Of a DNA stretch of 64,000 nucleotides, positions 5,747-52,658 are shown in pieces. Below the pieces are notes generated by a model that did not search any database, was not told the origin of the DNA, and saw only the letters and a list, made by a program, of their open reading frames with translations. The stretch lies in the IMG/VR virus record IMGVR_UViG_3300045988_103986, positions 32,001 through 96,000 of that record, one strand, 5' to 3'. The first letter of the stretch is position 1; each line of letters opens with the position of its first letter. The stretch comes from a virus. The position numbers and the translations under genes were made by a program.

Positions 5747-5763
5747 GAAGGAGGTTTTGCGCC

Positions 5764-7611: not shown

Positions 7612-7728
7612 AAAATATTTTTTCGGCTTCCTCGCGGCACTTCGGCTGCGACAACTCCAAATATTCTTCGACAAGTTCCGAATTTTCCTTCTCTTTTGGA
7701 GATATCTGAACTTCTTCGACAGTTTTTA

Positions 7729-7762
7729 TATGACCTAAATCATTTGGAGGCATGAGTATGCT
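7729..7762 (+). promoter_or_regulatory. TATGACCTAAATCATTTGGAGG box plus -10-like hexamer (copy 2 of 3)
   Basis: tatgacctaaatcatttggagg...TATGCT, upstream of gene 7832. Confidence 0.5.
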
Positions 7763-7831
7763 GAAAATAGAGGCAGGTAACAAACGAAGCCAAGCAAACA
7801 AGCAAACAAACAACAACAGGAGGAAAAAGCA

Positions 7832-18346: not shown

Positions 18347-18622
18347 ATGAACAAGGAAGAACTCGTTCAGGCAGTTGCCAGCAAGACCAACATGCCGAAG
18401 ACCGCCAGTTTGGAGGCCATCGATGCCGTTTTCGCAGCAATCGAAGAATCTCTCATTGCGCACGAAGATGTCACTATCGCTGGTTTCGGCAAGTTCACTG
18501 CGAAGTACCAGAAGGCCAGAACCGCGAGAAACCCGGTCACGGGTGGACCGGTCGACGTTCCGGCAAAATTCTCGGTCAAGTTCTCGGCAAGCAGCGTGCT
18601 GAAAAAAGCAGTTGCAAAGTGA
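18347..18622 (+). CDS. hup: HU/IHF-family DNA-binding protein
   Basis: MNKEELVQAVASKTNMPKTASLEAIDAVFAAIEESL...GFGKF...RTARNPVTGGPVDVPAKFSVKFSAS is the classic HU pattern. RBS aaaggagg. Confidence 0.9.
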   Translation: MNKEELVQAVASKTNMPKTASLEAIDAVFAAIEESLIAHEDVTIAGFGKFTAKYQKARTARNPVTGGPVDVPAKFSVKFSASSVLKKAVAK

Positions 18623-18678
18623 ATCATGGGGCTATTTTGCCCCTCTACATAGTAAAATCACAGAAAGGATGCAATTTC

Positions 18679-19224
18679 ATGTTAGATATCAAGATCCATC
18701 GCGGCGATATTTTCTGGATTCGTCAGGACTATAGTGCCGTTGGCTCCGAGCAAAAAAAGAATCGTCCGGCGATCATTGTCAGCAACGACAAAAATAATAC
18801 ATATTCCGAAACTGTAGAGATTGTTTATCTCACAACCGCTGAGAAAAAGCCCATGCCAACACACGTTGCTATCGAAACGATGGGCAAGCAGTCTACTGCA
18901 CTTTGCGAGGCCATCTACACAATCGATAAGGAACGCTTGGAGAACTACTACTGTACATTAACGACCGAGGAAATGAAACTCGTTGACCAGGCTGTTCTCG
19001 TCTCCTTGGGGCTTACGGCCCCCCCTATTTGTACCGTAGCCGCATCACAAGAGCCAGAACCCGAAAAGGTCTGTGTTCCGATCAACCCGCCATTTGGTTT
19101 GGAAGATGCACTCCGCGCAGTGCAGAAGGAACGCGATACACTGCTTGCGCAGAAGGAGATCTACGAGAAAATCTGTGCCGCCGCACTGCCGCGTTGGCCG
19201 AAGGAGGTTGAGTTGGGCGCATGA
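18679..19224 (+). CDS. PemK/MazF-like toxin domain protein with ~70-aa C-terminal extension
   Basis: RGDIFWI...GSEQKKNRPAIIVSNDKNN..SETVEIVYLTT...PTHVAI...ALCEAIYTIDKERL...LTTEEMKLVDQAVLVSLGL matches the MazF/PemK pattern. No canonical antitoxin ORF lies immediately upstream. Confidence 0.7.
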   Translation: MLDIKIHRGDIFWIRQDYSAVGSEQKKNRPAIIVSNDKNNTYSETVEIVYLTTAEKKPMPTHVAIETMGKQSTALCEAIYTIDKERLENYYCTLTTEEMKLVDQAVLVSLGLTAPPICTVAASQEPEPEKVCVPINPPFGLEDALRAVQKERDTLLAQKEIYEKICAAALPRWPKEVELGA

Positions 19225-20306
19225 TTTATCTTGACCACGCAGCTACTTCTCCTGCGCTTCAATGCGCGAAGGTCGCCTTCAACGCGGTTTCAGCAACAAT
19301 ATGGGGAAATCCGAACTCTCTGCATTCCTTCGGGCAGGACGCCAGAAAGATGCTGGAATCCTCCAGAGAGAGTGTGGCGCGGTGCTTGGGGTGTGAGCCG
19401 GAACAGGTGTTCTTCGTTTCCTCTGCAACAGAAGCTTGCAGGATTGCAATCACGAGAATGACGGAATCATGCAAAAAGGTCCATGTAACGAAAGTAGAAC
19501 ATGCAGCCGTAACCAGCATGACAGACCGCAAGGTATATAGTGACCGCCGGAACGATAATCGTGGTTTTGTGCATATCCACACTAACAACGAAACTGGCGA
19601 AATATACGATTTGAAAAGTGCTTTTTCAGGGTATGATTTGACGTTCTCCGACTGTACCGCAGCCATGGGGAAGCAAAAAATCAACTTCCGTGAAAGCGGC
19701 ATAAACTTCATATGTGGATCAGGGCATAAGATCGGCGCTCCGGTTGGAATTGGTGTTCTGATTGCAAAGAACCCAGCGGACATCACTGAACGTTTCCATT
19801 TTGGCACACCATCTGTTCCCCTTGCTGCCGCATTTGCATCGGCATTGGAGTTCCGCACCAAAGAGATAGATTTGTTTGCTGGCGTAACAGAATTCTTGCA
19901 TGACCGCCTGATTGATGGTATCATGAATGAAATACCAGACGCGCAGTTCAACGGTTGTCCGTGCTTCAGGCATCAGATGAAGCAATCTCCGTACATTGCA
20001 AACATCTCTTTCCCAGGCATCGAAAACCACGCGCTTGTCCTGCGGCTTGCCGCTGATGGCCTGATGGTTTCTTCCGGCGCGGCGTGTTCCAGCGGTGACA
20101 ATGAGCCATCTCGCGTGCTTCTTGCTTCCGGGTATTCTGAGGAACGTGCACGGTCAGCTATCCGTTTCAGTTTCGATTACAAGCTTGATTTCGATGCAAA
20201 CGATATGGGCAACAACTACGGGTTGAACCTTGAACGCGATGCAAGAATCATCGACGAGGCCGTGAAGATCGTGGCTCAGAACGTGCGGGAAATGAGGGGT
20301 ATATAA
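19221..20306 (+). CDS. cysteine desulfurase (NifS/IscS-like, class V aminotransferase)
   Basis: IYLDHAATSP...GNPNSLHSFG; PLP-lysine motif SGHKIGAPVGIGVL; active-site SSGAACSSG. ATGA overlap with the upstream gene. Confidence 0.85.
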   Translation: MIYLDHAATSPALQCAKVAFNAVSATIWGNPNSLHSFGQDARKMLESSRESVARCLGCEPEQVFFVSSATEACRIAITRMTESCKKVHVTKVEHAAVTSMTDRKVYSDRRNDNRGFVHIHTNNETGEIYDLKSAFSGYDLTFSDCTAAMGKQKINFRESGINFICGSGHKIGAPVGIGVLIAKNPADITERFHFGTPSVPLAAAFASALEFRTKEIDLFAGVTEFLHDRLIDGIMNEIPDAQFNGCPCFRHQMKQSPYIANISFPGIENHALVLRLAADGLMVSSGAACSSGDNEPSRVLLASGYSEERARSAIRFSFDYKLDFDANDMGNNYGLNLERDARIIDEAVKIVAQNVREMRGI

Positions 20307-25510: not shown

Positions 25511-26614
25511 CTACGCCATTAGGCGCATTCCTTCGTGCAAAATGTTCTTCGCGGCGTTGATGTCCCGATCATGACGCGTCCCACATTTGGGGCACGTCCA
25601 CTCCCGCACCGCCAGATTCTTTGTGCCGATGTTCCGATATCCGCAACAGGAGCATAGCTGGCTGGAAGGGAAGAAACGGTCTATCTGTATGACCTTTTTC
25701 CCATACCACGCGGCTTTGTATTCTAACTGCCGTCGGAACTCGCCCCATGATGCGTCGCTGATGGACTTCGCAAGGCGATGGTTCTTGACCATGTTCTGCG
25801 GTGCTAAGTCTTCGATGCAGACTACATCGTTCTCCCGGATGAGTTGCGTTGACAGTTTGTGCATCATGTCGCTGCGCTGGTTTGTGATATGCTCATGCAG
25901 CCGTGCCACCTGAAGCCTCGCTTTCTCGTGCCGGTTGCTCCCCTTTGGTTTTCGGGAGAGCAGCCGTTGTAGTCTGGCAAGTTTCTTCTGGCTCTTGGCT
26001 AAATAACGCGGGTTTGGATATTCCGTTCCATCTGACGTAATTGCGAATGCTTTCAGCCCCATATCAACGCCGATAACACAGCCTGTCTTTGGAAGCGGCT
26101 CAATCTCCACATCAGTGCAGCAGAGCGATACGAAGTATTTCCCGCTGGGATTCTGAGATATCGTGGCCGATAAAATGCGCCCTTTGACTTCCTTTGAAAC
26201 CCGACACTTGACATGTCCCAACTTTGGAAGCTGGACTGCATTTTCAAAAATCTTGATGTTGCAATTCGTCGTGTAACTCTGTCTATGGTCGCGCTTGCTT
26301 TTGAACTTTGGAAAACCGGGCTTCTCACCGTTCTTTACTCGGCGAAAAAAGTTCTTATATGCAGCGTCCAAGTATTTCAGCGCATTTTTTAAAGCGCACT
26401 TATCTGGTTCTTGTAGCCATTCGAGTTCCTTTTTTAGTGCAGTGAGTTCCTTGTCCTGCTGAAAACGTGTAGGAGATTTCCCAGTTTCTCTATACTGCGC
26501 GATACGCTCAGCGAGAAAGTAGTTATACACAAACCGGACACATCCGAAAGTGTGCTGTATTAAGTTTCTCTGAGCCGAATTTGGGTACAGCCTAAATTGA
26601 TAGGAATATTCCAT
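25511..26614 (-). CDS. tnpB: TnpB (IS605 OrfB-family RNA-guided endonuclease), second copy
   Basis: 367 aa. The N-half is diverged from the 16234-17346 copy; the C-half is nearly identical. [18 protein letters not shown] and CSCCG...CPKC are intact. Confidence 0.92.
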
Positions 26615-41324: not shown

Positions 41325-42455
41325 TTAGGTCGAAGTGACCTCGACCTCGCAGGTGTCCTTGAACGTGGACTCGCCTGCGGTATAGCTGACCTCAACCGTG
41401 AAGTCACCGGCAGTAGCGCCGGCGGTAATCAGACCAGTGTTTGCACCAACGGTCGTACCGTCGGGAGCGCCAGTCGCGGTATAGGTGAAGGTATTCGCGT
41501 CGCCCTTGACCAGTTCGCCATTCTTCATGGCGATACGGGGCTGCATCTGATAGGTGGTGGACGCCTTGAGGGAAATGCCGCCGATGTTGGCAACAACGCC
41601 CTCGATCTCTTCCTCACCAGAAGCGCACGGCTGGTAGATGTAGTACGCAAGGTCACTGCCCGCGCCGGCGCATTCGTCGCAGCCATCGGTGATGACGTCC
41701 GGGTCATAAGCGATAGCCTGACCAGACAGAGACGTGGTGTCGTTGTTGGTCTGGTCGCCGGTAATGCCGCCGTTTGCGCCAAACTTCAGGGACGGGATGA
41801 TGATGTACAGCGTGCCAACACGAGTGCCCTCGTTCTGAGAGGAACCAGCAGACGTGGAGAAGACCGCCACAGTCGCAATGAAGTGAACGACCTTCGGGTC
41901 CATAGCCGTGGTGATGGTGGCAATCTGCGCAGTGGCCTTGTTGACGAAGTAGAAGACCTTGTAAGTCTTACCCGTAGTCGCGGTGAAACCGGAAACTGCG
42001 CCGTCAGTCGGGTTGATGTCATAGGCAACACCACCGGTTGCGACCGGGGACGCAGCGCCGACTTCCTGGACATAGCAGAAGATCTTGGAGAAGCCCTTCT
42101 GCGCGACCGGCGTGCCTTCCTTGAGATCGATGGACAGTGAAGCAGTTGTAGCCGTGATAGTCTGGCACACCATGACCGGCGCGTTGTGCTGCAGCATTGC
42201 GCCCATCTGCGCTGCCTTCGCCCAGAGGTTGAAGTCGGCAGCAGTGAACTCGACGTTGACAGAAGCGTCGGAAGGAAGCGTGGTTGCGATAGCGTTGCCA
42301 AGGCCAGCGCGGATTTCGCCGATGGTGACGCTCGGCGTCACGTTACCGGTCTGGAACTTGTTGGAGAAGTAAAGAATCTGGCCGGTAGTCTTGTCCGTAC
42401 AGATTGCTTCGCCGATGCCCTTCGCGTAAAGGCGGGAGTCAGTAAAACGAATCAT
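41325..42455 (-). CDS. putative major tail (tube) protein with C-terminal Ig-like domain
   Basis: 376 aa upstream of the tape measure. The C-terminus FTYTATGAPDGTTVGANTGLITAGATAGDFTVEVSY is Big_2-like. The call rests mainly on position. Confidence 0.5.
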   Translation of the reverse strand: MIRFTDSRLYAKGIGEAICTDKTTGQILYFSNKFQTGNVTPSVTIGEIRAGLGNAIATTLPSDASVNVEFTAADFNLWAKAAQMGAMLQHNAPVMVCQTITATTASLSIDLKEGTPVAQKGFSKIFCYVQEVGAASPVATGGVAYDINPTDGAVSGFTATTGKTYKVFYFVNKATAQIATITTAMDPKVVHFIATVAVFSTSAGSSQNEGTRVGTLYIIIPSLKFGANGGITGDQTNNDTTSLSGQAIAYDPDVITDGCDECAGAGSDLAYYIYQPCASGEEEIEGVVANIGGISLKASTTYQMQPRIAMKNGELVKGDANTFTYTATGAPDGTTVGANTGLITAGATAGDFTVEVSYTAGESTFKDTCEVEVTST

Positions 42456-43461: not shown

Positions 43462-44148
43462 CTATTCCTCTGGCAAATCCATCTCCGAGTCGCACCACTC
43501 AACGCTCATGTGTGGCATACGACCGACGTGGTTGCCATAGTCGAAGATACTCTTGCTGCCGTTATCGGCATGAGCATACCGGTCGAAGTCGATAACGCCG
43601 ATGCCGGTAATGTTTACGCCGTGCAGGGCCTCGATGATGCACTGCTCGATGTTATACGCTCTGGAATAGGCATCAGTCCGCGTGGTATTCTCCATGTTGA
43701 CATTCACAAGGACCTCAAACTGCAGGCCGAGGACCGTATGGAAATTATCTTTTGCAATCGTGCGGCCCATGTAGAGTTTCAGTATCGTATCCGCCTCTGT
43801 ATCGCTCTGACCCCAGACTCTCTGCGGATAGATGCGATATCCTTTCGGGTGCCGTTCTTTCTCTTCCTGCGTGTTGAGCACGGGATTGTCCCCATCAAAC
43901 AGCATGGACAGCTTTTCAGCCGGCGTAGGCAGCGGATTCGCCAACGGCCTAGCGCCATCGTGCCACAGATACTTCATCAGCCGCACGCGGGCGCGGTCGT
44001 TGTCATCAACCGGCATGTACCCCGGCAGAGGAAGGTCCATCAGATACTTTAAAATCTTGATGGGGATTTCCTCTGTGCCACGAAGCCTGTTGAAACCCGG
44101 ACTGACGCGGCTATAGGGATAAGTGTCCGAGTTCACCGATACCGCCAT
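43462..44148 (-). CDS. hypothetical structural-module protein
   Basis: 228-aa ORF, contiguous with 44150-44728. Confidence 0.5.
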   Translation of the reverse strand: MAVSVNSDTYPYSRVSPGFNRLRGTEEIPIKILKYLMDLPLPGYMPVDDNDRARVRLMKYLWHDGARPLANPLPTPAEKLSMLFDGDNPVLNTQEEKERHPKGYRIYPQRVWGQSDTEADTILKLYMGRTIAKDNFHTVLGLQFEVLVNVNMENTTRTDAYSRAYNIEQCIIEALHGVNITGIGVIDFDRYAHADNGSKSIFDYGNHVGRMPHMSVEWCDSEMDLPEE

Positions 44149-44149
44149 A

Positions 44150-44728
44150 TCAAGCTCCCTCCGGCTGTTTCTTCCGGCTTTCCATGTAGTCAGCGAATGC
44201 CTTCTGCGCGTCCTTCAGCTCGTTCAGCGCGCCGCTGACAGCCTCTGGCGTGGTCTGCTGCTGCAGCGCCATGATGATGCGTGTGACCGGCTCGTTCATG
44301 ACCTGCGTGAGGCCGTAGATTTCGGTATTCAGCCGCTTTTCGAGGTCGCGCATATCTGCAACCACGTCAAATGCCTTATCCCGAACCTCTCCGTCGTAGC
44401 GCTTCAGGCGCTCAATCTGGTTCATGATGTGGCTCGCGGCAAAGCGGTCGAAATCCGGAGTTGACATAATCCAAGGATTCTTCTCTGACTCGAATGCCTC
44501 GCCCAAGTAGAGCTTCGCATATGCCGCCATGAGCACACGACTCTTGATTGCCGTGTTTTCTTTATAGAGCGGCGGCATCGGCATACTGTCCAGTCCGCTA
44601 TCAATCTTCAGCTCCACGCGGTCAAAGCAAAGATCCGCCGCCTCTTTGACGAGCTGCATCTTCTCAAGCAGCGGAACATAGTCCGGCATCTGCATGAGTT
44701 TTTCCTTCGTAATAACGATCTTTTCCAT
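44150..44728 (-). CDS. hypothetical structural-module protein
   Basis: 192-aa helical ORF. Confidence 0.5.
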   Translation of the reverse strand: MEKIVITKEKLMQMPDYVPLLEKMQLVKEAADLCFDRVELKIDSGLDSMPMPPLYKENTAIKSRVLMAAYAKLYLGEAFESEKNPWIMSTPDFDRFAASHIMNQIERLKRYDGEVRDKAFDVVADMRDLEKRLNTEIYGLTQVMNEPVTRIIMALQQQTTPEAVSGALNELKDAQKAFADYMESRKKQPEGA

Positions 44729-44772
44729 ACCTTCACGACTCCTTTCGGTTGTATGGCTCAGTTTATTGTATG

Positions 44773-44949
44773 CTAGGTTTTAATCTTGCAGTGGGCTTCT
44801 CCGTCGGAAACCTCCCACTTTTTTGTCCTTGCGCACAAATATTGATGTGCGCACCAATCATGTCGTTCGCCTTTTTCTGTAAGATACCGGCAATGCAGAC
44901 TCACGTCGCCGTTTTTACGGTAGGCGTATTCGCAGTAATGTGCGCCCAT
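44773..44949 (-). CDS. small Cys/His-rich protein, 58 aa (below the ORF-track cutoff)
   Basis: Hand translation MGAHYCEYAYRKNGDVSLHCRYLTEKGERHDWCAHQYLCARTKKWEVSDGEAHCKIKT. Weak RBS ggaagga. Confidence 0.4.
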   Translation of the reverse strand: MGAHYCEYAYRKNGDVSLHCRYLTEKGERHDWCAHQYLCARTKKWEVSDGEAHCKIKT

Positions 44950-44958
44950 GTTTTCTTC

Positions 44959-45383
44959 TCATCCTTCCGTGATATCCGCTCTGTAAGAGTAACGGTAAAA
45001 CTTCACAGTGACGTCTTTTTTCAGGACGTACTCGTAGTTTATAAAGCTTTTCTGTTCAGCGACTTTGTTCCCGTTTAAATACACAGAGCAGTTTGCTTTG
45101 TCTGCATTCGATATGATGATGCTGATTTTGGCCCCAGAAGGCAGCACTACACTTTCAGAAAACAAGTATTGGTTGTTGTAGTTCACCCACATATAATACG
45201 TAGAGCCGCCATTCCAGCCGTCTACGACTGTAAGAATCACTTCTTTTGGCGCGAATGCGATCTCATATGTGGTCCCCTCGACCTGCGTCCACCCCCCCCG
45301 ATATGGAATATAGTTCCATCTACGAGGTTGGTCCCGCCGGTGATGTCATAGCTCGTACCGGCGATTATGGTTTTATGGCTCAT
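44959..45383 (-). CDS. cassette paralog P6 (beta-type leader), frame broken at a G8 tract
   Basis: RBS ggagg, then ATG 45383: MSHKTIIAGTSYDITGGTNLVDGTIFHIGGG. The tract is the + strand C8 at 45292-45299. The long downstream ORF (WTQVEGTTYEIAF...ILTVVDGWNGG...) needs 9 (or 6) G to be in frame. Confidence 0.6.
45292..45299 (-). repeat. G8 homopolymer (C8 on + strand) in P6
   Basis: Counted directly: accccccccg. Confidence 0.95.
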
Positions 45384-45410
45384 GTTGCCTCCTAGTTCGC
45401 GCTTTGTTTT

Positions 45411-45877
45411 TCATTCTGTGACGTATGTGTTGTAAACATCTATAGCAATTGCACCGTCTCCCCATGGGTTTGCCGTCTGAATAGAGTCATAAAGCGTAAC
45501 GGTCACGTCTGAATTTACTGTGTAATCGTACCAAAGCACGCTGCTGCTAGAGTCGGCTTTACGGACGTTGTTTATAAAAACTGATCCGGTATGATTGTAT
45601 TCTCCGCCGTACTTCAACTGAATGACTTCGCCTTTTTCCACTGTCAGGGTTTTCGGCGCAGAGTACAGGGTGCCGTTATACTTTACCCGATTGGTATTGT
45701 AGCCCGAACCGCCGTTAACGATCGTTACCGTCACGTACTCGGTTTTCTTCAGTACGATATCGACGGCTGTCCCATCAATCAACGTTTTGCCTTGTTCAAT
45801 TGAATATACCGTTCCACCAATGAGGGCTTTACCCCCCCCACTTGGTAATTAGTACCATTCACAAGTGCATTTGCCAT
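45411..45877 (-). CDS. cassette paralog P5 (alpha-type leader), frame broken at a G8 tract
   Basis: ATG 45877: MANALVNGTNYQV, then G8 (45832-45839). The downstream frame GKALIGGTVYSIEQGKTLIDGTAVDIVLKK... needs 9 (or 6) G. Confidence 0.6.
45832..45839 (-). repeat. G8 homopolymer in P5
   Basis: Counted directly: acccccccca. Confidence 0.95.
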
Positions 45878-46338
45878 CATGCCACCTCAGTGAAATACTG
45901 GCCGATCAGCTCGTGCGGGAGATACTGCAGGGTGATCTTGTCGCCGGCCGTTGCGCCGGTGCGCTCGCAGAGGTAGAGTTTGCTGTCTTCCGGGTCGGTA
46001 TAGTACAGGCCGTAGGTGTACTCCATGCCTCTGGACGCCGGGATCGGGTCTTCCCGCGTGCCGGCGTGCTGCTCATCGATGACGGTGAAGAGCGCAGGAG
46101 TCTTATCCGGCTCCCAGCCGGTTTGAGTGGTGTGGCCCTGGCCTTTGTTGACGCGGTACAGCTTGTCCACGCCGTCGGTCGCGAAGACGAGCCGGTCGCC
46201 GGGCTTGACCACCATATCGGGGGCCCAGCGGGCGTAGAGTTCCTTCGCCTGCAGCGCGTCTGCGTCATCCAGATATGCAGACGCCTTCACGATGAATGGG
46301 CGCAGGGCCCGTGCGCGTTCGGTGTATGTAGTAGCCAT
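45877..46338 (-). CDS. hypothetical protein (unrelated to the cassette paralogs)
   Basis: 153-aa intact ORF whose stop overlaps the P5 start. Confidence 0.6.
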   Translation of the reverse strand: MATTYTERARALRPFIVKASAYLDDADALQAKELYARWAPDMVVKPGDRLVFATDGVDKLYRVNKGQGHTTQTGWEPDKTPALFTVIDEQHAGTREDPIPASRGMEYTYGLYYTDPEDSKLYLCERTGATAGDKITLQYLPHELIGQYFTEVA

Positions 46339-46730
46339 TATTCTGCCTCCCCCATCAAGATTTTTGCCGCCTGTTCGGCGTCCGCTGCCTGCTCGCGGGC
46401 AAGCTCAAGTTCGGTCTTTTTGCCCATCTTCGCCGTCACGGTCCCGTCTCGATTATCGGTAATAGGGCCTGCGACAGCGTAGTCGGCGTTGTCCCATTCC
46501 TGCACCTGCTCCTCGGTCGCGCCGGTGGGGTTGCCGTCGGTGTCGTAGACGGGGACGGTATCGCGCTGGATGATGGACCAGCTCAGTCCGTCCACAAACA
46601 GCTGCGCGGCGGCAGCGTGGGTCATGGTCAGCGTGACGGCCTTGCTCTCGCGCCCGCCCCAGTCCCGGTCGGTGACTTTCCCGGCGATCGACGCCGGATA
46701 TTCGGTGTTATTTGTCTTAAAATAAATCAT
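46338..46730 (-). CDS. hypothetical protein (unrelated to the cassette paralogs)
   Basis: 130-aa intact ORF whose stop overlaps the next start. Confidence 0.6.
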   Translation of the reverse strand: MIYFKTNNTEYPASIAGKVTDRDWGGRESKAVTLTMTHAAAAQLFVDGLSWSIIQRDTVPVYDTDGNPTGATEEQVQEWDNADYAVAGPITDNRDGTVTAKMGKKTELELAREQAADAEQAAKILMGEAE

Positions 46731-46734
46731 GTTG

Positions 46735-47197
46735 TCATCCCTTTCTTTTCAGTATGACTGTGCAAACTATATAAGACGCTGCCATTGGCCACCCTATGTA
46801 GCTTGCTCCCGTTGAATATTTGGCGTTTATCGTCAGCTTCCCGTTTACAGTCGCGTTTTCTGTTATTTTATAATTGAGAAGTTCATATCCCGAGCTCATA
46901 GCATTGGTGTACGCTCTGTTAAACCTAATCGAATTTTCTATGGATGTTTTTACGGCTATGAAACGTGAAGATTGTTGTCCGAAAACAAAGTATTCAGCAA
47001 GATCGTATTTCGTCCAGTCAAACGCAGCATTTTCGAGCGTCATCACTTCCTTGCTGATCGACGTCGGGTTCATCTCAACAACAACCGTGTCGTTCACTTC
47101 GCGGGTAGCCATGATACTGTAGACTGTGCCGTCGATCATGACTTTACCCCCCCCCAACTTGGTAATTCGTACCATTTAAAAGTGCAACGTGTGCCAT
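46735..47197 (-). CDS. cassette paralog P3 (alpha-type leader), frame broken at a G9 tract
   Basis: RBS ggagga, then ATG 47197: MAHVALLNGTNYQV, then G9 (47147-47155). The downstream frame GKVMIDGTVYSIMATREV... needs 8 G. The track ORF start (ATGGTACGA) is an internal out-of-frame ATG. Confidence 0.6.
47147..47155 (-). repeat. G9 homopolymer in P3
   Basis: Counted directly: tttacccc|cccccaac. Confidence 0.95.
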
Positions 47198-47210
47198 GCT
47201 GATTCCTCCT

Positions 47211-47733
47211 TTATGCTGGCTCGAAAGATAAAACCTTCACATACGCGCTTAAATCGCCCAAGCACGGATTTATCATGTTGAAATTAGGTCTATAGGTTCC
47301 TTCTTTTGTCGCTTGTATAGTAAAAATCATTGATTTGTTGTCACTCGCCTCATGATAATCAGTGACACCATCGCCAGTAATGGTATTGCAGTTTCCTGTG
47401 ACCTGTAATTGCAAAATGCCAGGCGTCATCTGGATTGTCATCGAGTTTCTACTTAGATACACGTATTGCGCTTTCGAACCAAATGATACGCTCCCCTCCG
47501 TGCTCGGGTAAGTGAGCGTAGGCATTTGAATGTCTTTAGTGCTGTCGTATTGACTAAGCACGTAACGCCACGACATATCAATCGTGTACGATCCTTTTGA
47601 GAACAGGATGTCATACCTGGTCCCGTTTACAAGTGTGCGACCCCCCCCCGATTTGGAATATAGTTCCATCTACGAGGTTGGTCCCGCCGGTCACGTCGTA
47701 GCTCGTACCGGCGATTATGGTTTTATGGCTCAT
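47211..47733 (-). CDS. cassette paralog P2 (beta-type leader), frame broken at a G9 tract
   Basis: RBS ggagg, then ATG 47733: MSHKTIIAGTSYDVTGGTNLVDGTIFQI, then G9 (47641-47649). The downstream frame GRTLVNGTRYDILFSKGSY... needs 8 G. Confidence 0.6.
47641..47649 (-). repeat. G9 homopolymer in P2
   Basis: Counted directly: gcga|cccccccccg. Confidence 0.95.
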
Positions 47734-48184
47734 GTTTTTGCCTCCAAGACGATGGTGTATATGCTACCCTCAACAAGTAAATTTGCAGATGGGAGCGCTG
47801 GGAGCACCGCTTTTCCGTTTTGTGAAAAATTGAACATTGATGTTACACTTGGGCTATCTGCAGATGAGACACCGCTGTAATGTCCGCCGGAAACTATTCC
47901 ATTCATTTTCTGATAATTTTTCTCATACACAATTAAGACCGTCACTCCGGTCATATTGTAATATCCGGCAGTTGCGTACAGCGCTTGCACGACTTCATAT
48001 TTGTCGTAATCCAAGCGTGCATCATTAACCGTGAAGCTGCCATTTACAGTAGACGGCAGTTTGCCAGTAACAACAATGGTCTTCTCCACTTCCTTGGTCG
48101 TCATGATCGAGTAGGCCGTTCCATCAATGAGAGCTTTACCCCCCCCACTTGGTAATTCGTGCCATTTACAAGTGCATTTGCCAT
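47730..48184 (-). CDS. cassette paralog P1 (alpha-type leader), frame broken at a G8 tract
   Basis: RBS gaggtg, then ATG 48184: MANALVNGTNYQV, then G8 (48139-48146). The downstream frame GKALIDGTAYSIMTTKEVEK... needs 9 (or 6) G. Confidence 0.6.
48139..48146 (-). repeat. G8 homopolymer in P1
   Basis: Counted directly: tttacc|ccccccactt. Confidence 0.95.
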
Positions 48185-48193
48185 AATTTCACC

Positions 48194-48574
48194 TCATGTT
48201 GCATCCGATTTCGGAATAGCGATATAGTAGTAGGTAGAGCCATTGTAACTGTCATTAAAATACGCGGCACTTGAAGCTGAATTTGCTTTTAACGTTACCG
48301 ACTTTCCATCCCACACGACCGTTCCCAATCTATCAAAAGACGTATTTCCACTACGTTGTCCGGTTAAGCCTGTTTCTCCATTTATCAGTTCAATCTCAGA
48401 TTCAAGATACCCAGAACTGATCCAATGAATTTTAAAAAGGGCTAGTTCAAAGTCAAAAGCAAATGTTCGGCTTAAATTTCCATTTCCTTTATAAGACCCG
48501 ATAACTGCGCCTTTGTCACCGCTTCCTCCGCCTATTGTATATATGGTTCCGTTGACTAAAGTCTTACCGCTCAT
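48194..48574 (-). CDS. cassette paralog P0 (intact; Gly linker encoded by mixed codons)
   Basis: RBS ggagga, then ATG 48574: MSGKTLVNGTIYTIGGGSGDKG... The GGGSG is encoded as ggcggaggaagcggt, with no homopolymer. Confidence 0.7.
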   Translation of the reverse strand: MSGKTLVNGTIYTIGGGSGDKGAVIGSYKGNGNLSRTFAFDFELALFKIHWISSGYLESEIELINGETGLTGQRSGNTSFDRLGTVVWDGKSVTLKANSASSAAYFNDSYNGSTYYYIAIPKSDAT

Positions 48575-48592
48575 TACATATATCCTCCACAA

Positions 48593-49759
48593 TCACTCAT
48601 ATTGCCAAGCAATGGTTCCGTTGATGGAAGGCGTCGTCTCTGCTGAGAACAGTGCCTCGCCACGGGCCATGTAGGTCGTATAGTTGCTATCCGCAATATT
48701 TACTGCATTATTACGATTAAGCGCCGTATTGATATTGCTAGTCGTTGCTGCGCCCACATCGGCCGCAGAAAGTGACACCACGCCGGTCTTATTGTTGACA
48801 CTGGTTACAGGGGCAGATTTAATATAATCCACACCTTCTTCAGCGATTTCCCATGCGGTTGGAACGCCACTGGAATCTACAGATTTTACCTTAATAAGGT
48901 CTCCGACCGCCGCGCCGGACGAGATGAGCGTGTCTTGCTTCTTTGCAAGAGCTGTGTTGAGGTCGCTTTCCGTCTGGAATTTCGCATCGTTGTCGAGGTC
49001 AGAAGACTTTCCGCTGAATGCGACCGTCTTCAAATCCGAGAACCATTTTGCGATTTTTCCAAAGAGGACGGAAAGCTTGTCGCCGGAAGCGACGTTTTCG
49101 CGTACCGCCGCCTGTTCGAAAGTCGCAGTCGTCTCGGAAGAATCGCCAGTCTTCTTGAGGTAATCAGTGGTAACAAAGTCTTCCGTGGCGAGTTTCTTCG
49201 AGCCGTTGTCCATGCCGGTGCCGCTGGTAGATCCGACGTAGACGTCGCCGGCATACCATGCGTTGCCGTTCCAGTCCATCGTATGGGCGTTGGAGCGGTT
49301 CGAATTGGAAGTTCCATTGCCCACGATATGCTGATAAGTACCACGTCCGGAAGGCTCATTCCCAGACGGGTCCTGAACGTTGTACTCACCCTCTACATGC
49401 TGAGAGCGATTTGCTGCGACAGTTCCGGTCCCTTCGGCGTGTGCGGCCTGTCCGGAAGCCTCCGTGGAGGAACCTTCTGCATGAGAACAATCGCCAGAAG
49501 CCTTTGTGCCGCTGTTCTGCGCATGGGAAGCGCTGCCGGACGCGACTGCTCCGTTACCTTCTGCATGAGCACTGGCTGCGGATGCAGACGTACCGGAGCC
49601 AAACGCCGTCGCGTTTGCACCGGAAGCAGCTGCTGCACCCGCTTGCTTCAGCGCGCCAGCTCCGGCCCCGTTCTCAAGGTTCGTCGCAGTGGAGCGCTCT
49701 TCCACGTCTTTCTTGCGAGGAATCGATAAGTCCTCATTGTATTTCGTAAGGTTTCTCAT
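48593..49759 (-). CDS. tail fibre protein with YadA-head-like (Hep_Hag-type) repeats and SVNxKTGxVxL motif
   Basis: ASAHAEGNGAVASGSASHAQNSGTKASGDCSHAEGSSTEASGQAAHAEGTGT (repeating xAxGxxS units); ...VTSVNNKTGVVSLSAADVGA. Confidence 0.7.
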   Translation of the reverse strand: MRNLTKYNEDLSIPRKKDVEERSTATNLENGAGAGALKQAGAAAASGANATAFGSGTSASAASAHAEGNGAVASGSASHAQNSGTKASGDCSHAEGSSTEASGQAAHAEGTGTVAANRSQHVEGEYNVQDPSGNEPSGRGTYQHIVGNGTSNSNRSNAHTMDWNGNAWYAGDVYVGSTSGTGMDNGSKKLATEDFVTTDYLKKTGDSSETTATFEQAAVRENVASGDKLSVLFGKIAKWFSDLKTVAFSGKSSDLDNDAKFQTESDLNTALAKKQDTLISSGAAVGDLIKVKSVDSSGVPTAWEIAEEGVDYIKSAPVTSVNNKTGVVSLSAADVGAATTSNINTALNRNNAVNIADSNYTTYMARGEALFSAETTPSINGTIAWQYE

Positions 49760-49781
49760 GTGATTTCCTCCTACATGTTAA

Positions 49782-50357
49782 TTAGAAACACCATGCCGCT
49801 GCGATGCCGTCCACCTCGGACGCGACGCTCCAGTCTGCTTCACCGCTCCACCCAGTTCTGTCAAAGCAGGTGGTGCTGTTGAGTCTCGGCGAGCGCAAAT
49901 ACCACGCGCGGTTTTTCTTCCGGTTCGCGGCCGTCTGGTAATACTCGTACTGCGTGCCCTCGCCTGGATAGGAGAATGTCCGTGTGCCCTGTACCTCGAT
50001 CTCCGACAACAGGAACAGCGTATCCTCCGTCGTGTCGATAGCCGAACTGGCGCTGCCTGCCGAGGTTTTCTTCGTCACGGCTTTCATCGCAGCCACGACC
50101 TCTGCCGGCATCACCTGTCTCAGCTTCGGGAATGCATTGTACGTTCGCACCAGACAGTTCACCCAACCACAGCTATTGCTCTCTGCACCGTTCATCTTAT
50201 ACTGCGTCGCGTAGGTCGTGTGCATCTGGAATGTCAGCGGAGCCTTGCCCGAGCCGTCGGCATAATCGTCGTGGTTCTTGCCGATGATGTCGATTGCGTA
50301 GGTCGTGTTGTTGATCGTCATGTTGCAGCTGTCGCCGACGTTCCATGTGTCAGGAAC
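49782..50357 (-). repeat. 576-bp near-identical direct repeat, copy B
   Basis: See copy A at 28535-29110. Confidence 0.85.
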
Positions 50358-50699
50358 TTCTTTGTTATGCACAGCGGCAATGATGTCGGGCCAGCTGTTC
50401 TCGGAGAATACAGCCTTGATTAAAACGACGCTAATCGCTTGCGTCGTGGTCGCAGTAACACCGAACTCTGTAAAGCTGATTGTGATCGCGGTATCACCCG
50501 TCGCGGCGACCGTGGGCGAGTATGTGAATCCAGTTGTCACTTCTCTGGTCGCGCCATTGGAATACGTTGCTTCCAGTACCATTCCGGAAACGTCTATGGT
50601 CTCGTCCACTTTATATTCAGTCACTGTCGGTGGTGTCTTTACCGCAATGCTGGAAAGCTCAATTCCTCCAGACTTCTTATAAATCGTGTTTACAATCAT
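49782..50699 (-). CDS. receptor-binding-type protein (N-terminal Ig-like region + C-terminal AWYLRSP module duplicated from 28535-30808)
   Basis: 305 aa. The last ~190 aa are nearly identical to the C-terminus of the 757-aa protein (…NVGDSCNMTINNTTYAIDIIGKNHDDY…LFLLSEIEVQG…AWYLRSPRLNS…AAWCF). Confidence 0.7.
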   Translation of the reverse strand: MIVNTIYKKSGGIELSSIAVKTPPTVTEYKVDETIDVSGMVLEATYSNGATREVTTGFTYSPTVAATGDTAITISFTEFGVTATTTQAISVVLIKAVFSENSWPDIIAAVHNKEVPDTWNVGDSCNMTINNTTYAIDIIGKNHDDYADGSGKAPLTFQMHTTYATQYKMNGAESNSCGWVNCLVRTYNAFPKLRQVMPAEVVAAMKAVTKKTSAGSASSAIDTTEDTLFLLSEIEVQGTRTFSYPGEGTQYEYYQTAANRKKNRAWYLRSPRLNSTTCFDRTGWSGEADWSVASEVDGIAAAWCF

Positions 50700-51025
50700 A
50701 TAGCAGCCTCTTGAATGCTAACCAAGATATTGATATCGCCAGTGGGGATTTTATCGCATGTGAATGTCAGAAGATTTGCCGCCTGTGAGCGAAGCCAGAC
50801 ACCGGCTTCGTAGTATGCGTCCTGCATGGATGAAACAGGAGCAGCCTCAATCCGCTGCTTCGTTTCATCAGCGGAGATTCCGTCAACAACAATAGATTGC
50901 TGCATTGTCGCGCTGTCCCACGCGGAAGCCGGAAGCGTTGCCTGTACGATCTTCACCATAGCAAGGATGACTTTTTCTTTCGTCGGGACCGCTAGATCGT
51001 TATCGTATTTTGAAAGGTTCTTCAT
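50696..51025 (-). CDS. hypothetical structural protein
   Basis: 109-aa ORF with an ATGA overlap to the downstream gene. Confidence 0.55.
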   Translation of the reverse strand: MKNLSKYDNDLAVPTKEKVILAMVKIVQATLPASAWDSATMQQSIVVDGISADETKQRIEAAPVSSMQDAYYEAGVWLRSQAANLLTFTCDKIPTGDINILVSIQEAAI

Positions 51026-51122
51026 TCCGCACCTCCGCTTTTTGCATCAAACAGCACCTCAAAAGAATTTCTGAGGTGTTCTTTGATGCCCCCGGATTTC
51101 TCCGGGGGCTATAACGTGCAAA

Positions 51123-52658
51123 TCAGCCGATTGCAACGACCTTGTAGGTGCCAGCCGCCAGCGTGGTAGCAGTGGAATCAGTCTGGTTGATAACAACAGT
51201 GATGCTGTTGTCCTCGTTCAGAGAGACATCCGCAATTACCATGTCGTTGGTAGCAACTTCGTACACCTGAACCAGCATCGGGAACGTGGGGCCGTTATCC
51301 TGTGCCGCAATGGTCCACGTGTAAGCGCCGCCTGCAGCCGTCAGGACGGGGTTGTTAGTGCTGTACTTCTTGAGGTGTACCGGCATAGCCTGCCAAGTCG
51401 GGGCATTATCCGCGCCGCCGGAGACCAGAATCTGACCGGCCTCACCGGCCCCAGTGGGAGCAAAGAAGGACGGGTCCTTCGTAGCCGTACCATTGAGCGT
51501 GATGGTGTTGTTGGTAGCACCTTCGGCAACAGCATCCAGTTTGTTCTTGTCTTCCTTACTGAACTGCGTGTAGGTGGTGCCTGCGCCGATGTCATCCTGC
51601 GTCAGGACAACGACACCAGTCTTGCCGTTGACAGAGTTGACGTCAGACGGGTTGCAGAGCACGTAGGTCGTGCCGCCCCAACGATACTGCTTGTTCTGGT
51701 AAGCACCTTCCGTCATAACAACGTAGATCTTACCAGTCTCCGGAGTCAGGGCTTCGCCGCCAGCGGTCAGGGACAGCCAGTCAGTTGCAAGCGGGGTCTC
51801 GCCGACGATGTAGGCTTCCACAACGTCATCGACGTAGCTGGGCAGCTGGGCAGCCGGAACAAGGCCGTCAGCGCCGAGGGTCGCAACGCCGTTCGCCGCG
51901 CCTTTCTCGGAAGCAGGAATCTTGGAGTCGAGCTGTTCCTGCGCGTCAGAGGTGAGGCCAGTGATGTACTGTGCGCCAACGATCTCCTTTGCCTCAATGG
52001 CAGTGACGTGGCCGGCAGCGTCAACAGTGACGCCTACAGTGTGCGTGGCATCGCCGTATGCGCCTGCAGTTGCACCGGAGAATGCGTGACCGACGGTGAT
52101 GGTCTTCGCCGTAGGATCAGCAGCAACATGCGTCCACTTGTCACCAGAGGCCAGCGTGAAAGTGTCCGTCTTGGAGCTCGCGGAAACGGTAGCTGCAGCA
52201 GCCTGACCGGCGACCTCAGTCGTATCGTTCTCACTCTGCTTCGGGACATTGATGTTCGACCATGCGTTCTGGTTGACTTCGCCGCCGCCAGCAACCGCGT
52301 TCTTGACCGCAGTGTCGAGGGCTGCCATAGCCTGCTGGATTGTCATGTCCTTTGCGACATAACCATCGTCAACAGGCGTATAGCCGGTCAGAGTCAGTTC
52401 GACGACATTCTTGGTGGTTACAGTGCCGGTGGAATCGAGGCCAACGATGACTGCACCGGTGCTGCCTTCCTGGTTGTAGACAACACCTACGGGCTTCCAG
52501 CGTTCGCCATCAAACTGATAAATGACCTTATCAGTGCTGTTGGTGTAAATCTGACCGAACTTCGGGTTCGCAGGCGCAGTAGCCAGCGGCTGAATGACAG
52601 CATTCTGAAGTTCATTTTTGCTGAGGTCAAGATTTACGAGGAAGGTTCTTTTGCTCAT
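51123..52658 (-). CDS. tail fibre protein
   Basis: N-terminus LDLSKNELQNAVIQPLATAPANPKFGQIYTNSTDK..Y.FDGERW is a common fibre N-terminus. Internal motif DVNSVNGKTGVVVLTQDDIGAGTTYTQFSKEDKNKLD. Confidence 0.7.
   Translation of the reverse strand: MSKRTFLVNLDLSKNELQNAVIQPLATAPANPKFGQIYTNSTDKVIYQFDGERWKPVGVVYNQEGSTGAVIVGLDSTGTVTTKNVVELTLTGYTPVDDGYVAKDMTIQQAMAALDTAVKNAVAGGGEVNQNAWSNINVPKQSENDTTEVAGQAAAATVSASSKTDTFTLASGDKWTHVAADPTAKTITVGHAFSGATAGAYGDATHTVGVTVDAAGHVTAIEAKEIVGAQYITGLTSDAQEQLDSKIPASEKGAANGVATLGADGLVPAAQLPSYVDDVVEAYIVGETPLATDWLSLTAGGEALTPETGKIYVVMTEGAYQNKQYRWGGTTYVLCNPSDVNSVNGKTGVVVLTQDDIGAGTTYTQFSKEDKNKLDAVAEGATNNTITLNGTATKDPSFFAPTGAGEAGQILVSGGADNAPTWQAMPVHLKKYSTNNPVLTAAGGAYTWTIAAQDNGPTFPMLVQVYEVATNDMVIADVSLNEDNSITVVINQTDSTATTLAAGTYKVVAIG

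What the first reader, a model, noticed from the sequence alone, without database searches (positions are those of the whole stretch)
44959..48592. Cassette of six paralogous small tail-module genes; five are gated by G8/G9 homopolymers and every one is out of frame as sequenced
Cassette layout:
- Six small genes (P0 48194-48574, P1 47730-48184, P2 47211-47733, P3 46735-47197, P5 45411-45877, P6 44959-45383) lie between the fibre block and the neck/tail genes. Two unrelated genes lie between P3 and P5.
- They share tandem ~14-aa units of the type G(K/R)(T/A)L(V/I)(N/D)GTxYxI, followed by divergent C-terminal domains.

Leaders and tracts:
- Five of the six begin with a strong RBS and an ATG, then a leader that is almost identical at the nucleotide level within two classes.
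- The alpha leader is MA(N/H)(A/V)ALVNGTNYQV in P1, P3 and P5.
- The beta leader is MSHKTIIAGTSYD(V/I)TGGTNLVDGTIF(Q/H)I in P2 and P6.
- Each leader is followed by a run of 8 or 9 G (C-runs on the + strand at 48139-48146, 47641-47649, 47147-47155, 45832-45839 and 45292-45299). The run encodes the GGG linker of the motif.

Frame status:
- In all five, the tract length given here separates the leader from the long downstream ORF.
- P1, P5 and P6 have 8 G and need 9 (or 6).
- P2 and P3 have 9 G and need 8.
- The sixth paralog, P0, encodes the same linker as ggcggaggaagcggt, has no homopolymer, and is intact.

Interpretation:
- The other very long ORFs in the window (1742, ~1550, 757 aa) are uninterrupted, so generalised indel error is unlikely. 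Errors specific to homopolymers remain possible.
- The required corrections go in both directions, which argues against a single programmed ribosomal frameshift.
- Slipped-strand or transcriptional slippage at the G tracts fits better. Each virion or lineage would then express a stochastic subset of alternative C-terminal domains on a common N-terminal adaptor.
- That would be a contingency-locus style host-range or surface-variation system in a phage, distinct from DGRs and invertible (Cin/Gin-type) fibre switches.
- The conserved leaders would additionally allow recombinational shuffling of the cassettes.
Basis: partly seen in the sequence, partly recalled or inferred. Interest (0 to 1): 0.88.

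Follow-up and report, generated by a model that had tools for sequence, protein, structure and literature searches.

The report
Poly-G phase-variable mini-fibre gene cassette
A temperate phage of human-gut Clostridia carries six related small virion-module genes, five of which are switched on or off by the length of a run of 8-9 G bases that varies between otherwise near-identical phages; this mechanism was previously shown only in Campylobacter phages.

Summary
Five G8/G9 runs (window 48139-46, 47641-49, 47147-55, 45832-39, 45292-99; sense strand is minus) are the only G/C homopolymers of 8 or more in 64 kb. Each separates an RBS+ATG leader from a 105-142-codon body, and a 1-nt change fuses them.

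It is not an assembly artefact:
- Two independent Illumina assemblies are 100% identical to the window, including all five tract lengths.
- About 35 related contigs keep the homopolymer at orthologous sites, with lengths of 6-11.
- About one third of these sites are in frame.
- Near-isogenic pairs differ at tracts while their flanks are 99.98-100% identical.
- Intact "ON" proteins exist widely, for example P0040 for P1 and P0001/P0045 for P5.
- More distant relatives have one intact gene with mixed-codon linkers.

Best explanation: these are slipped-strand contingency loci that gate alternative beta-sandwich head domains on a shared beta-hairpin N-terminus. Read-level heterogeneity and protein function remain untested. 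The precedent is Campylobacter phage polyG receptor-binding proteins (Sorensen 2021), so this is a new variant of a known kind. It is new in being a paralogous multi-switch cassette in a Gram-positive gut phage.

The parts
48194..48574 (-). P0: intact 126-aa paralogue with one beta-hairpin repeat (GKTLVNGTIYTI). Its linker GGGSG is encoded by mixed codons, so it has no switch.
47730..48184 (-). P1: alpha leader MANALVNGTNYQV, G8 tract and 135-codon body. OFF as sequenced; G9 gives a 151-aa protein.
   Evidence: The ON protein P0040 (151 aa) differs from the repaired P1 at 3 positions (35% identity reported is to the P5 query).
48139..48146 (-). P1 poly-G tract, G8 (ON would be G6 or G9).
47211..47733 (-). 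P2: beta leader MSHKTIIAGTSYDVTGGTNLVDGTIFQI, G9 tract and 142-codon body. OFF; G8 gives 173 aa. The leader is a P6-type copy, whereas orthologues use MSHKTLISGTAYEVVGGAQMIDGTKFQ.
47641..47649 (-). P2 poly-G tract, G9 (ON would be G8 or G11).
46735..47197 (-). P3: alpha leader MAHVALLNGTNYQV, G9 tract and 136-codon body. OFF, with TAA directly after the tract; G8 gives 153 aa.
   Evidence: In the orthologue of L111 the tract is G8 and ON, with identical flanks.
47147..47155 (-). P3 poly-G tract, G9 (ON would be G8 or G11).
46338..46730 (-). Unrelated 130-aa gene. GC-rich (about 60-65%), with a weak Ig-like (Invasin_D3) hit. Part of the conserved backbone.
45877..46338 (-). Unrelated 153-aa gene (phrog_27545, weak CBM_5_12 hit). 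GC-rich and widely conserved in Oscillospiraceae prophages.
45411..45880 (-). P5: alpha leader (M)MANALVNGTNYQV, G8 tract and 139-codon body. OFF; G9 gives 155/156 aa.
   Evidence: ON proteins P0001, P0002 and P0045 exist. The structure model shows three hairpins plus a beta-sandwich.
45832..45839 (-). P5 poly-G tract, G8 (ON would be G9 or G12; both are seen elsewhere).
44959..45383 (-). P6: beta leader MSHKTIIAGTSYDITGGTNLVDGTIFHI, G8 tract and 110-codon body. OFF; G9 gives 141 aa.
45292..45299 (-). P6 poly-G tract, G8 (ON would be G6 or G9).
48593..49759 (-). Upstream flank: 388-aa fibre-like protein with Ala/Gly/Ser-rich repeats and a tail-protein-like C-terminus.
44150..44728 (-). Downstream flank: conserved 192-aa helical protein. 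It is followed by YomW-like (43462-44148) and YomU-type tail-tube (41325-42455) genes.

Best explanation
The cassette is a set of five independent simple-sequence contingency loci in a temperate, SPbeta-like siphovirus of gut Oscillospiraceae.

Anatomy:
- Each gene encodes a small virion-module protein of about 140-175 aa.
- The N-terminus has 1-3 beta-hairpin repeats of the type (G-K/R-x-L-I/V-D/N-G-T-x-Y-x-I).
- The C-terminus is a variable beta-sandwich or jelly-roll head of about 100 aa.
- The loop after the first or second hairpin is Gly-Gly-Gly, written as an uninterrupted run of G.

Mechanism:
- Replication slippage adds or removes a G in the prophage or during lytic replication. This is inferred, by analogy with bacterial and Campylobacter-phage polyG tracts.
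- Translation from the strong RBS/ATG then either reads through into the body (ON) or stops within 0-20 codons (OFF).
- Five switches plus the constitutive P0 allow 32 combinations of head domains on a common N-terminal module.
- Nearly identical leaders also allow recombination to re-pair leaders and bodies.

Shown: real tracts, tract-length polymorphism that is decoupled from flank divergence, both ON and OFF alleles with intact bodies, and leader swapping.

Inferred: slippage at the DNA level as the cause, incorporation of the proteins into virions, a glycan- or host-binding role, and any bet-hedging benefit.
For: (1) The tracts are non-random.
- They are the only G/C runs of 8 or more in 64 kb, all on the sense strand at the same linker.
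- GGG makes up 11% of Gly codons, and other GGG tripeptides use mixed codons.
- The cassette is AT-richer than its surroundings (39-49% GC).

(2) It is not an error.
- L193 (ENA SPAdes contig, 19x coverage) and L194 (Logan) are 100% identical to the window over 8372 and 2327 nt, including tract lengths.
- In conserved alignments to relatives, uncompensated 1-nt indels in coding DNA occur only at the tracts.

(3) Tract length is polymorphic.
- 56 leader-tract-body sites were found in 22 contigs. Lengths were 6-11, with 19 ON and 37 OFF.
- A sister lineage of 15 loci shows mixed ON/OFF combinations at 2-4 sites per locus.

(4) Tract change is decoupled from substitutions.
- Pairs with identical leader and body DNA differ in tract: G9 vs G8, G7 vs G8 and G7 vs G8.
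- L201 and L205 are 99.979% identical over 9356 nt but have G7 vs G8.
- Among 15 pairs at 99% identity or more, half of the tracts differ against 0.6% nucleotide divergence.

(5) Protein clusters hold ON and both OFF-frame ORF calls with the same body.
- For example P0064 (147 aa, ON) is on 23 contigs, P0062 (140 aa, G7) on 39 and P0063 (120 aa) on 31.
- GGGG variants (G12) also exist: P0056 and P0072.

(6) Bodies stay open in all alleles, and only one tract of about 70 is interrupted (L145).

(7) More distant relatives carry one intact gene with KGG/KQG-type linkers. The homopolymer is therefore a derived feature of the expanded clade.

(8) Structure models show N-terminal hairpins plus a confident beta-sandwich. 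The weak top matches are lectins, galectins, CBMs and pilins.

(9) Precedent exists for polyG phase variation of phage receptor-binding proteins (PMC10877375 ref 59; PMC11868660; PMC10579305).
Against: - No reads were available. Length heterogeneity within one population, and the switching rate, are not shown.
- All seven contigs carrying the window's exact P5 body appear to share one configuration, so switching is not fast enough to scramble a strain's consensus.
- dN/dS of the bodies is high (0.3-0.8, and above 1 in two pairs with few differences). This fits diversifying selection but also relaxed constraint.
- About two thirds of alleles are OFF, which is what neutral drift of frame would give.
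- No protein family, solved structure or cultured phage homologue assigns a function.
- Virion location is inferred from gene order only.
- Some sites are OFF in most contigs sampled (RTQVDG body: G7 in 4 and G8 in 1).
Confidence: 0.78

Rival explanations
1. Programmed recoding. The bodies would be expressed mainly by RNA-polymerase slippage on the G run (or by -1/+1 ribosomal slippage on G_GGG_GGG / GGG_UAA). 'OFF' DNA alleles would then still yield a set fraction of full-length protein, and DNA length variation would only tune a rheostat.
For: - Runs of 8-9 identical bases are the substrate of transcriptional slippage in other systems (general knowledge: Thermus dnaX, IS elements).
- Two thirds of alleles are out of frame, yet the bodies stay intact.
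- In P3 the OFF frame puts TAA directly after GGG, a context that resembles prfB-type +1 sites.
- The window strain keeps all five genes OFF in several assemblies.
Against: - The frame relation is not conserved. The same gene occurs in all three frames and frequently in frame, unlike known recoding sites.
- The corrections needed go in both directions.
- No shared downstream stem-loop was found (z-scores from +0.97 to -2.28), and there is no Rfam match.
- G/C runs are poorer substrates for slippage than A/T runs (general knowledge).
Confidence: 0.12
2. Homopolymer sequencing or assembly error. The genes would really be intact, and the frame breaks would be consensus artefacts.
For: - Homopolymers are the classic site of indel error.
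- A C-run in a terminator hairpin also varies between relatives: C5, C7 and C9.
Against: - Identical tract lengths were recovered by two assemblers and two datasets for the window strain.
- SPAdes-style contig names (NODE_…_cov_…) suggest that at least some of these contigs are Illumina short-read assemblies, yet about 66% of sites are out of frame. That is far above any plausible consensus error rate.
- Each length class recurs on tens of contigs.
- No indel noise appears at A/T 6-7 runs or elsewhere in coding DNA.
Confidence: 0.04
3. Decaying paralogues. The cassette would be a graveyard of duplicated genes inactivated at a mutational hotspot, with no selected switching.
For: - The ON fraction is about one third, as expected from neutral frame drift.
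- dN/dS values are fairly high.
- One allele has an interrupted tract and is out of frame (L145).
Against: - No second frameshift or stop occurs in any of about 70 bodies.
- The homopolymer is preserved as a perfect run against codon bias in nearly all alleles.
- Strong RBS and leaders are conserved.
- ON alleles are common.
- New leader-body combinations remain open.
Confidence: 0.06

Closest known systems
Hypermutable polyG tracts in Campylobacter (Fletchervirus) phage receptor-binding protein genes (Sorensen et al., Cell Rep 2021;35:109214; seen only as cited in PMC10877375, PMC11868660 and PMC10579305)
   Same: Both have poly-G runs inside phage structural or host-recognition genes. In both, +/-1 G changes switch the reading frame ON or OFF and create mixed phage populations. 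The concept of phage-encoded phase variation is shared.
   Different: - The host is Gram-positive gut Oscillospiraceae and the phage is temperate and SPbeta-like, not a lytic Campylobacter myovirus.
- The proteins share no detectable family.
- Here five switches sit at the same linker of paralogous genes in one cassette, with shared and exchangeable leaders.
- The phenotype is untested.
Bacterial contingency loci (polyG/C tracts in Campylobacter, Helicobacter, Neisseria, Haemophilus and Bordetella surface genes)
   Same: Both place a homopolymer near the 5' end of the ORF, show length polymorphism between near-identical genomes, have ON and OFF alleles, and contain several loci per genome that give combinatorial 'phasotypes'.
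   Different: This system is encoded by a phage. The tracts are clustered in tandem paralogues rather than scattered, and the switching rate has not been measured.
Phage contingency loci in T2/T4 (agt, rIIA; bioRxiv 10.1101/2025.10.21.683753)
   Same: Both involve reversible frameshifts at short homopolymers in phage genes, interpreted as bet-hedging.
   Different: - The T-even tracts are mostly A/T runs of 6 or more, spread over all gene classes.
[quoted passage not shown]
- They are kept ON in the consensus.
- Here the G8-9 tracts are confined to one structural paralogue family and are frequently OFF in the consensus.
Other phage tropism-diversifying systems: diversity-generating retroelements (DGRs; BPP-1 Mtd) and invertible fibre segments (Mu Gin, P1 Cin)
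   Same: Both produce alternative C-terminal binding domains on a constant N-terminal part, and both diversify within a clonal phage line.
   Different: The cassette has no inverted repeats, and no reverse transcriptase was found among the ORFs scanned. The switch is frame-based, not based on sequence rewriting or inversion.
Programmed frameshifts that append domains to phage structural proteins (tail chaperone G/GT; frameshift-appended Ig-like domains) (from memory)
   Same: A frame change at a defined site decides whether a C-terminal domain is made.
   Different: Those sites have a fixed frame relation and fixed efficiency. Here the frame relation varies between alleles.

Membership tests
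SSR-mediated contingency locus (phase-variable gene) | A homopolymer or SSR inside the 5' part of the ORF (or in the promoter), over-represented relative to chance and codon usage | tested here: met
   The tracts lie 13-29 codons after the ATG. There are 5 tracts against 0.85 G8 matches expected. GGG is 11% of Gly codons.
SSR-mediated contingency locus (phase-variable gene) | Tract length differs between closely related genomes and toggles the reading frame | tested here: met
   (for example L201 vs L205: 2 mismatches in 9356 nt, G7 vs G8)
SSR-mediated contingency locus (phase-variable gene) | The coding potential of the gated ORF is retained in OFF alleles | tested here: met
   All bodies are open in about 70 alleles. 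dN/dS is only moderately below 1.
SSR-mediated contingency locus (phase-variable gene) | High-frequency, reversible length change within a clonal population | not testable with these tools
   This needs raw reads or fluctuation assays.
SSR-mediated contingency locus (phase-variable gene) | A switch in phenotype (virion composition or adsorption) | not testable with these tools
   This is an experimental question.
Campylobacter-phage polyG receptor-binding protein system | The polyG tract lies in a gene for a receptor-binding protein | tested here: inconclusive
   The genes lie in the structural operon beside fibre-like genes. The models show a beta-sandwich head with only weak lectin/CBM-like matches. 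No receptor-binding protein family was hit.
Campylobacter-phage polyG receptor-binding protein system | Homology to the Fletchervirus proteins | tested here: not met
   tblastn of an ON protein against 50,697 phage records found only two unannotated faecal phage contigs, matching the N-terminal repeats only.
Programmed ribosomal frameshift | A conserved slippery site with a fixed frame relation between the upstream and downstream ORFs across orthologues | tested here: not met
   All three frame relations occur for the same gene.
Programmed ribosomal frameshift | A downstream stimulatory RNA structure | tested here: not met
   z-scores were +0.97, -0.67, -1.61, -0.65 and -2.28, with no common fold. 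There is no Rfam hit.
Programmed transcriptional slippage | Heterogeneous transcript tract length produced from a fixed DNA template | not testable with these tools
   This needs RNA data. The homopolymer length (8-9) is compatible.
Invertible-segment (Gin/Cin) fibre switch | Inverted repeats flanking alternative C-terminal exons, plus an invertase | tested here: not met
   There are 0 inverted repeats of 20 nt or more in 44700-48700. The leaders are direct repeats.
Diversity-generating retroelement | A reverse transcriptase plus a template/variable repeat pair | tested here: not met
   The only direct repeats in the cassette are the leaders. No reverse-transcriptase domain was found among the ORFs scanned, but the scan did not cover every ORF.

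The most novel reading that the evidence does not exclude
This would be a combinatorial, five-switch poly-G 'phasome' carried by a widespread temperate phage of human-gut Oscillospiraceae. Slippage in the prophage or during lytic growth would pre-diversify which lectin-like mini-fibre heads are displayed on a common beta-hairpin adaptor. Near-identical leaders would let heads be re-paired by recombination. If so, it is the first SSR-based tropism or surface-variation system in a Gram-positive or gut phage, and the first organised as a paralogous cassette.
Probability: 0.5. Interest if true: 0.8.

Novelty: new variant of a known kind. Interest (0 to 1): 0.7.

Why it matters
Phase variation by simple repeats is a textbook bacterial bet-hedging device. 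In phages it has been demonstrated only for Campylobacter phages, and more recently proposed for T-even phages.

Here it appears in a common, uncultured phage lineage of the human gut. Tens to hundreds of metagenome contigs carry it. It takes an unusually designed form: tandem paralogues, one switch each at the same structural loop, a constitutive sixth copy, and exchangeable leaders.

Three consequences follow:
- It offers a third route to phage surface or tropism diversity in the gut, alongside diversity-generating retroelements (DGRs) and invertible segments.
- It is a warning for annotation pipelines, which currently split these genes into fragments.
- It provides a directly testable model, because ON/OFF genotypes can be read from metagenomic reads and correlated with host strain dynamics.

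Tried and rejected
- A megablast of the cassette against INPHARED phages found no match.
- Pfam and PHROGs scans of the six (repaired) proteins found no family. Only sub-threshold noise appeared.
- A Rfam scan of 44000-51500 found nothing.
- PDB sequence searches with the neighbouring 341-, 511- and 388-aa proteins found nothing useful.
- The first genome-contig scan, with the 192-aa flank protein, found no relative. The second scan, with the 153-aa protein, gave the Oscillospiraceae prophage context but no locus from the poly-G clade.
- Fold searches gave no significant PDB match for either head domain, so no function could be assigned.
- A literature search on SPbeta Yom proteins, meant to place the cassette in the virion, found nothing.
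- A regex census of mixed-codon versus homopolymer linkers was too restrictive to be informative.
- The programmed-frameshift idea was examined and rejected as the main mechanism.
- Generalised indel error was rejected.
- An invertible-switch mechanism was rejected.

Full report
**1. Observation**

The region 44959-48592 lies on the minus strand. It holds six small ORF systems, P0, P1, P2, P3, P5 and P6, exactly as described.

A homopolymer census shows that the five C-runs on the + strand are the only G/C runs of 8 or more in the 64-kb window:

| Gene | Coordinates | Length |
|---|---|---|
| P1 | 48139-48146 | 8 |
| P2 | 47641-47649 | 9 |
| P3 | 47147-47155 | 9 |
| P5 | 45832-45839 | 8 |
| P6 | 45292-45299 | 8 |

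- The only other run of 7 is C7 at 19019-19025, and no A/T run exceeds 7.
- Dinucleotide shuffles expect 0.85 G8 matches. Seven overlapping matches (five tracts) are observed, and 0 of 100 shuffles reach that number.
- Each tract follows an ATG with a Shine-Dalgarno sequence and a leader of 13-29 codons. Each precedes an open body of 110-142 codons in another frame.
- Changing G8 to G9 (P1, P5, P6) or G9 to G8 (P2, P3) gives uninterrupted proteins of 151, 173, 153, 156 and 141 aa.
- P0 is intact and writes its linker as ggcggaggaagcggt.
- The leaders fall into classes that are almost identical at the DNA level. P2 and P6 are 96% identical over 95 nt. P1 and P5 are 87% identical over 91 nt. The bodies are unrelated.
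- GGG is a minor Gly codon in the backbone genes (11%). All seven other Gly-Gly-Gly tripeptides there use mixed codons.
- The cassette is AT-richer (39-49% GC) than both its flanks and the two GC-rich genes it encloses.

**2. Context**

- The cassette sits in a long minus-strand structural operon.
- Downstream lie a conserved 192-aa protein, a YomW-like 228-aa protein, a 277-aa protein, a YomU-type tail-tube protein (376 aa), a 168-aa protein, the 1742-aa tape measure, and large distal tail proteins with DUF6273 and Listeria-Bacteroides repeats.
- Upstream lie fibre-like proteins of 388, 305 and 511 aa, and a YomX-like 439-aa protein.
- The window also has a CHAP+SH3 endolysin, a tyrosine integrase, an antirepressor, a MazF-like toxin and two TnpB genes.
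- This is therefore a temperate, SPbeta-like siphovirus of a Gram-positive host.
- Relatives of the enclosed 153-aa gene are prophage genes in Oscillospiraceae genomes and MAGs, including Oscillibacter, Pseudoflavonifractor, Subdoligranulum and Intestinimonas.
- No cultured phage matches.

**3. Is it an artefact?**

No.
- An ENA SPAdes contig (L193, coverage 19x) is 100% identical to the window over 8372 nt. A Logan contig from another run (L194) is 100% identical over 2327 nt. Both include every tract length.
- In alignments of conserved coding DNA to relatives (94-99% identity, several kb), unpaired single-base indels occur only at the poly-G tracts. The rest are intergenic or lie in a terminator C-run.

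**4. Relatives**

*Survey of related contigs.* Leader DNA patterns and flanking proteins retrieved the clade from IMG/VR and metagenome collections.
- Across 22 contigs I found 56 leader-tract-body sites. Tract lengths were 6 (3 sites), 7 (10), 8 (15), 9 (25), 10 (2) and 11 (1).
- 19 sites were in frame and 37 were out of frame.
- A third leader class (MGTHHILKDGTSYAIKGGTDLIAGTSYQI) and at least 20 body types occur.

*Pairs with identical flanks.* Pairs with identical leader and body DNA nevertheless differ in tract length:
- P3-type: G9 OFF in contig 079350 versus G8 ON in L111.
- G7 versus G8 in 079350 and 087411.
- G7 versus G8 in 101145 and 079356.

*Protein clusters.* Clusters in the 15-billion-protein collection contain the in-frame product and both kinds of out-of-frame ORF call with the same body:

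| Protein | Length | Tract state | Contigs |
|---|---|---|---|
| P0064 | 147 aa | MANALVNGTNYQVGGGK..., ON | 23 |
| P0062 | 140 aa | alternative-frame MVLITKWGGK..., G7 | 39 |
| P0063 | 120 aa | internal start | 31 |

- G10 (P0073) and G12, which gives a GGGG linker (P0072, P0056), also occur.
- Full-length ON versions of the window's own genes exist. P0040 (151 aa) differs from the repaired P1 at three positions. P0001, P0002 and P0045 are 92-97% identical to the repaired P5.

*Sister lineage.* Fifteen further loci from a sister lineage have two to four tracts each and show mixed ON/OFF combinations across loci.
- L201 and L205 differ by 2 substitutions in 9356 nt but have G7 versus G8.
- Among 15 pairs at 99% identity or more, half of the shared tracts differ in length while nucleotide divergence is 0.6%.
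- One caveat applies: the three query alleles fixed the state at one of the sites.

*Other points.*
- Only one allele of about 70 has an interrupted tract (L145, gtgtgggaggt).
- No body has a second frameshift or stop.
- More distant relatives carry a single intact gene of the same architecture whose linkers are KGG, KQG or SGK in mixed codons. The homopolymer is therefore a derived feature of the clade in which the gene family expanded.

**5. Mechanism**

*DNA-level slippage.* The pattern has four elements:
- a perfect homopolymer maintained against codon bias;
- placement early in the ORF, in a loop that tolerates GGG or GGGG;
- length polymorphism decoupled from flanking divergence;
- a mixture of ON and OFF alleles with intact bodies.

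This is the signature of slipped-strand contingency loci. DNA-level slippage is inferred, not observed.

*Fixed programmed ribosomal frameshift.* This is unlikely.
- The same gene is found in all three frame relations.
- Both directions of correction are needed.
- There is no common downstream structure and no Rfam match.

*Transcriptional slippage.* Slippage on G8-9 could add leaky expression from OFF alleles and cannot be excluded. It remains the main rival or complement.

*Other switches.* There are no inverted repeats, and no reverse transcriptase was seen among the scanned ORFs. Gin/Cin-type and DGR mechanisms therefore do not apply.

*Leader exchange.* This is real. The window's P2 body carries a P6-type leader where its orthologues carry MSHKTLISGTAYEVVGGAQMIDGTKFQ. 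P0007 joins a P5 body to that leader.

**6. What the proteins are**

- AlphaFold2 models of ON alleles give two or three N-terminal beta-hairpins with low confidence, as expected if they oligomerise.
- The C-terminal domains are confident: a beta-sandwich in the P5 type (pLDDT 75-90) and a jelly-roll-like sandwich in the P1 type (mean pLDDT 77).
- Foldseek finds no significant PDB match. The best, non-significant matches are Gram-positive pilins and Ig-like domains, and legume lectins, galectins and CBMs.
- BFVD matches are uncharacterised proteins of uncultured gut phages.
- My inference is that these are miniature fibres or decoration proteins with a shared attachment/shaft module and variable, possibly glycan-binding, heads.
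- Whether they sit on the head, neck or tail is unknown. The label 'tail-module' is not established.

**7. Comparison with known systems and novelty**

- PolyG phase variation of phage receptor-binding proteins was demonstrated in Campylobacter phages (Sorensen et al. 2021). It is cited as the example of phase variation in phages in PMC11868660, and also in PMC10877375, PMC10579305 and PMC12823448.
- A 2025 preprint proposes widespread contingency loci in T-even and other phages. [quoted passage not shown]
- I found no report for gut Firmicutes phages.
- The present system works like those but is not homologous to them.
- It differs in four ways: host, temperate lifestyle, arrangement as tandem paralogues each switched at the same structural loop, and exchangeable leaders.
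- I rate it a new variant of a known kind.

**8. Verdict**

- The contingency-locus interpretation is supported by comparative evidence, with confidence of about 0.78.
- Function and within-population dynamics remain to be shown.
- Interest is 0.7.

Noticed in passing
window 51090-51115 (minus strand), downstream of the 511-aa gene: A terminator-like hairpin (agCCCCCgg agaaa tccGGGGGc) has a C-run whose length differs between relatives: C5 in the window, C7 in L005/L008 and C9 in L004/L007. This is another unstable G/C run outside the cassette, and the two arms become unequal.
   Followed up: partly
window 47600-47752 vs 45250-45402: The window's P2 leader is 96% identical to the P6 leader. 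Orthologues of the P2 body in L001, L002 and L003 carry a different leader class. This looks like gene conversion between cassette members, and it changed the tract length needed for ON.
   Followed up: partly
L145 2434-2475: One metagenome allele has the tract interrupted (GTGTGGGAGGT instead of GT+G8/9) and is out of frame. It may be a locked-OFF allele, or low-coverage noise (coverage 7.8x).
   Followed up: no
window 16234-17346 (+) and 25511-26614 (-): Two TnpB/IS605-OrfB (Cas12f-like) genes lie inside the phage. One lies between the endolysin gene and the distal tail genes.
   Followed up: no
window 18619-19224 and 19019-19025: A MazF/PemK-like toxin ORF contains the only other long G/C run (C7). 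It is followed by an aminotransferase class-V-like ORF (19221-20306), which is unusual cargo for a phage.
   Followed up: no
window 45877-46730: Two GC-rich (58-65%) genes are embedded in the AT-richer cassette. One is 130 aa with a weak Ig-like/Invasin_D3 hit. The other is 153 aa, matching phrog_27545 with a weak CBM_5_12 hit. They are the conserved backbone shared with many Oscillospiraceae prophages, and the P genes appear to have been added around them.
   Followed up: partly
window 48593-49759 and 50696-51025: The 388-aa fibre-like protein and the 109-aa ORF start with the same N-terminal motif, M(R/K)NL(T/S)KY(N/D)(E/N)DL(S/A)(I/V)P. This suggests a second shared adaptor used by other fibre genes.
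   Followed up: no
L208 (ENA ERZ28644703 scaffold_86) 2363-8476: The same 130/153-aa pair and poly-G genes occur in a different phage backbone. There they are followed by holin, ELLD and ToxN genes instead of the 192-aa/YomW/YomU genes. The cassette therefore moves between genomes as a module.
   Followed up: no
(public gene calls): Automatic gene callers split these genes into 30-48-aa leader ORFs plus truncated or alternative-frame bodies (for example MVLITKWGGK...). Protein databases therefore hold three 'versions' of each gene.
   Followed up: yes
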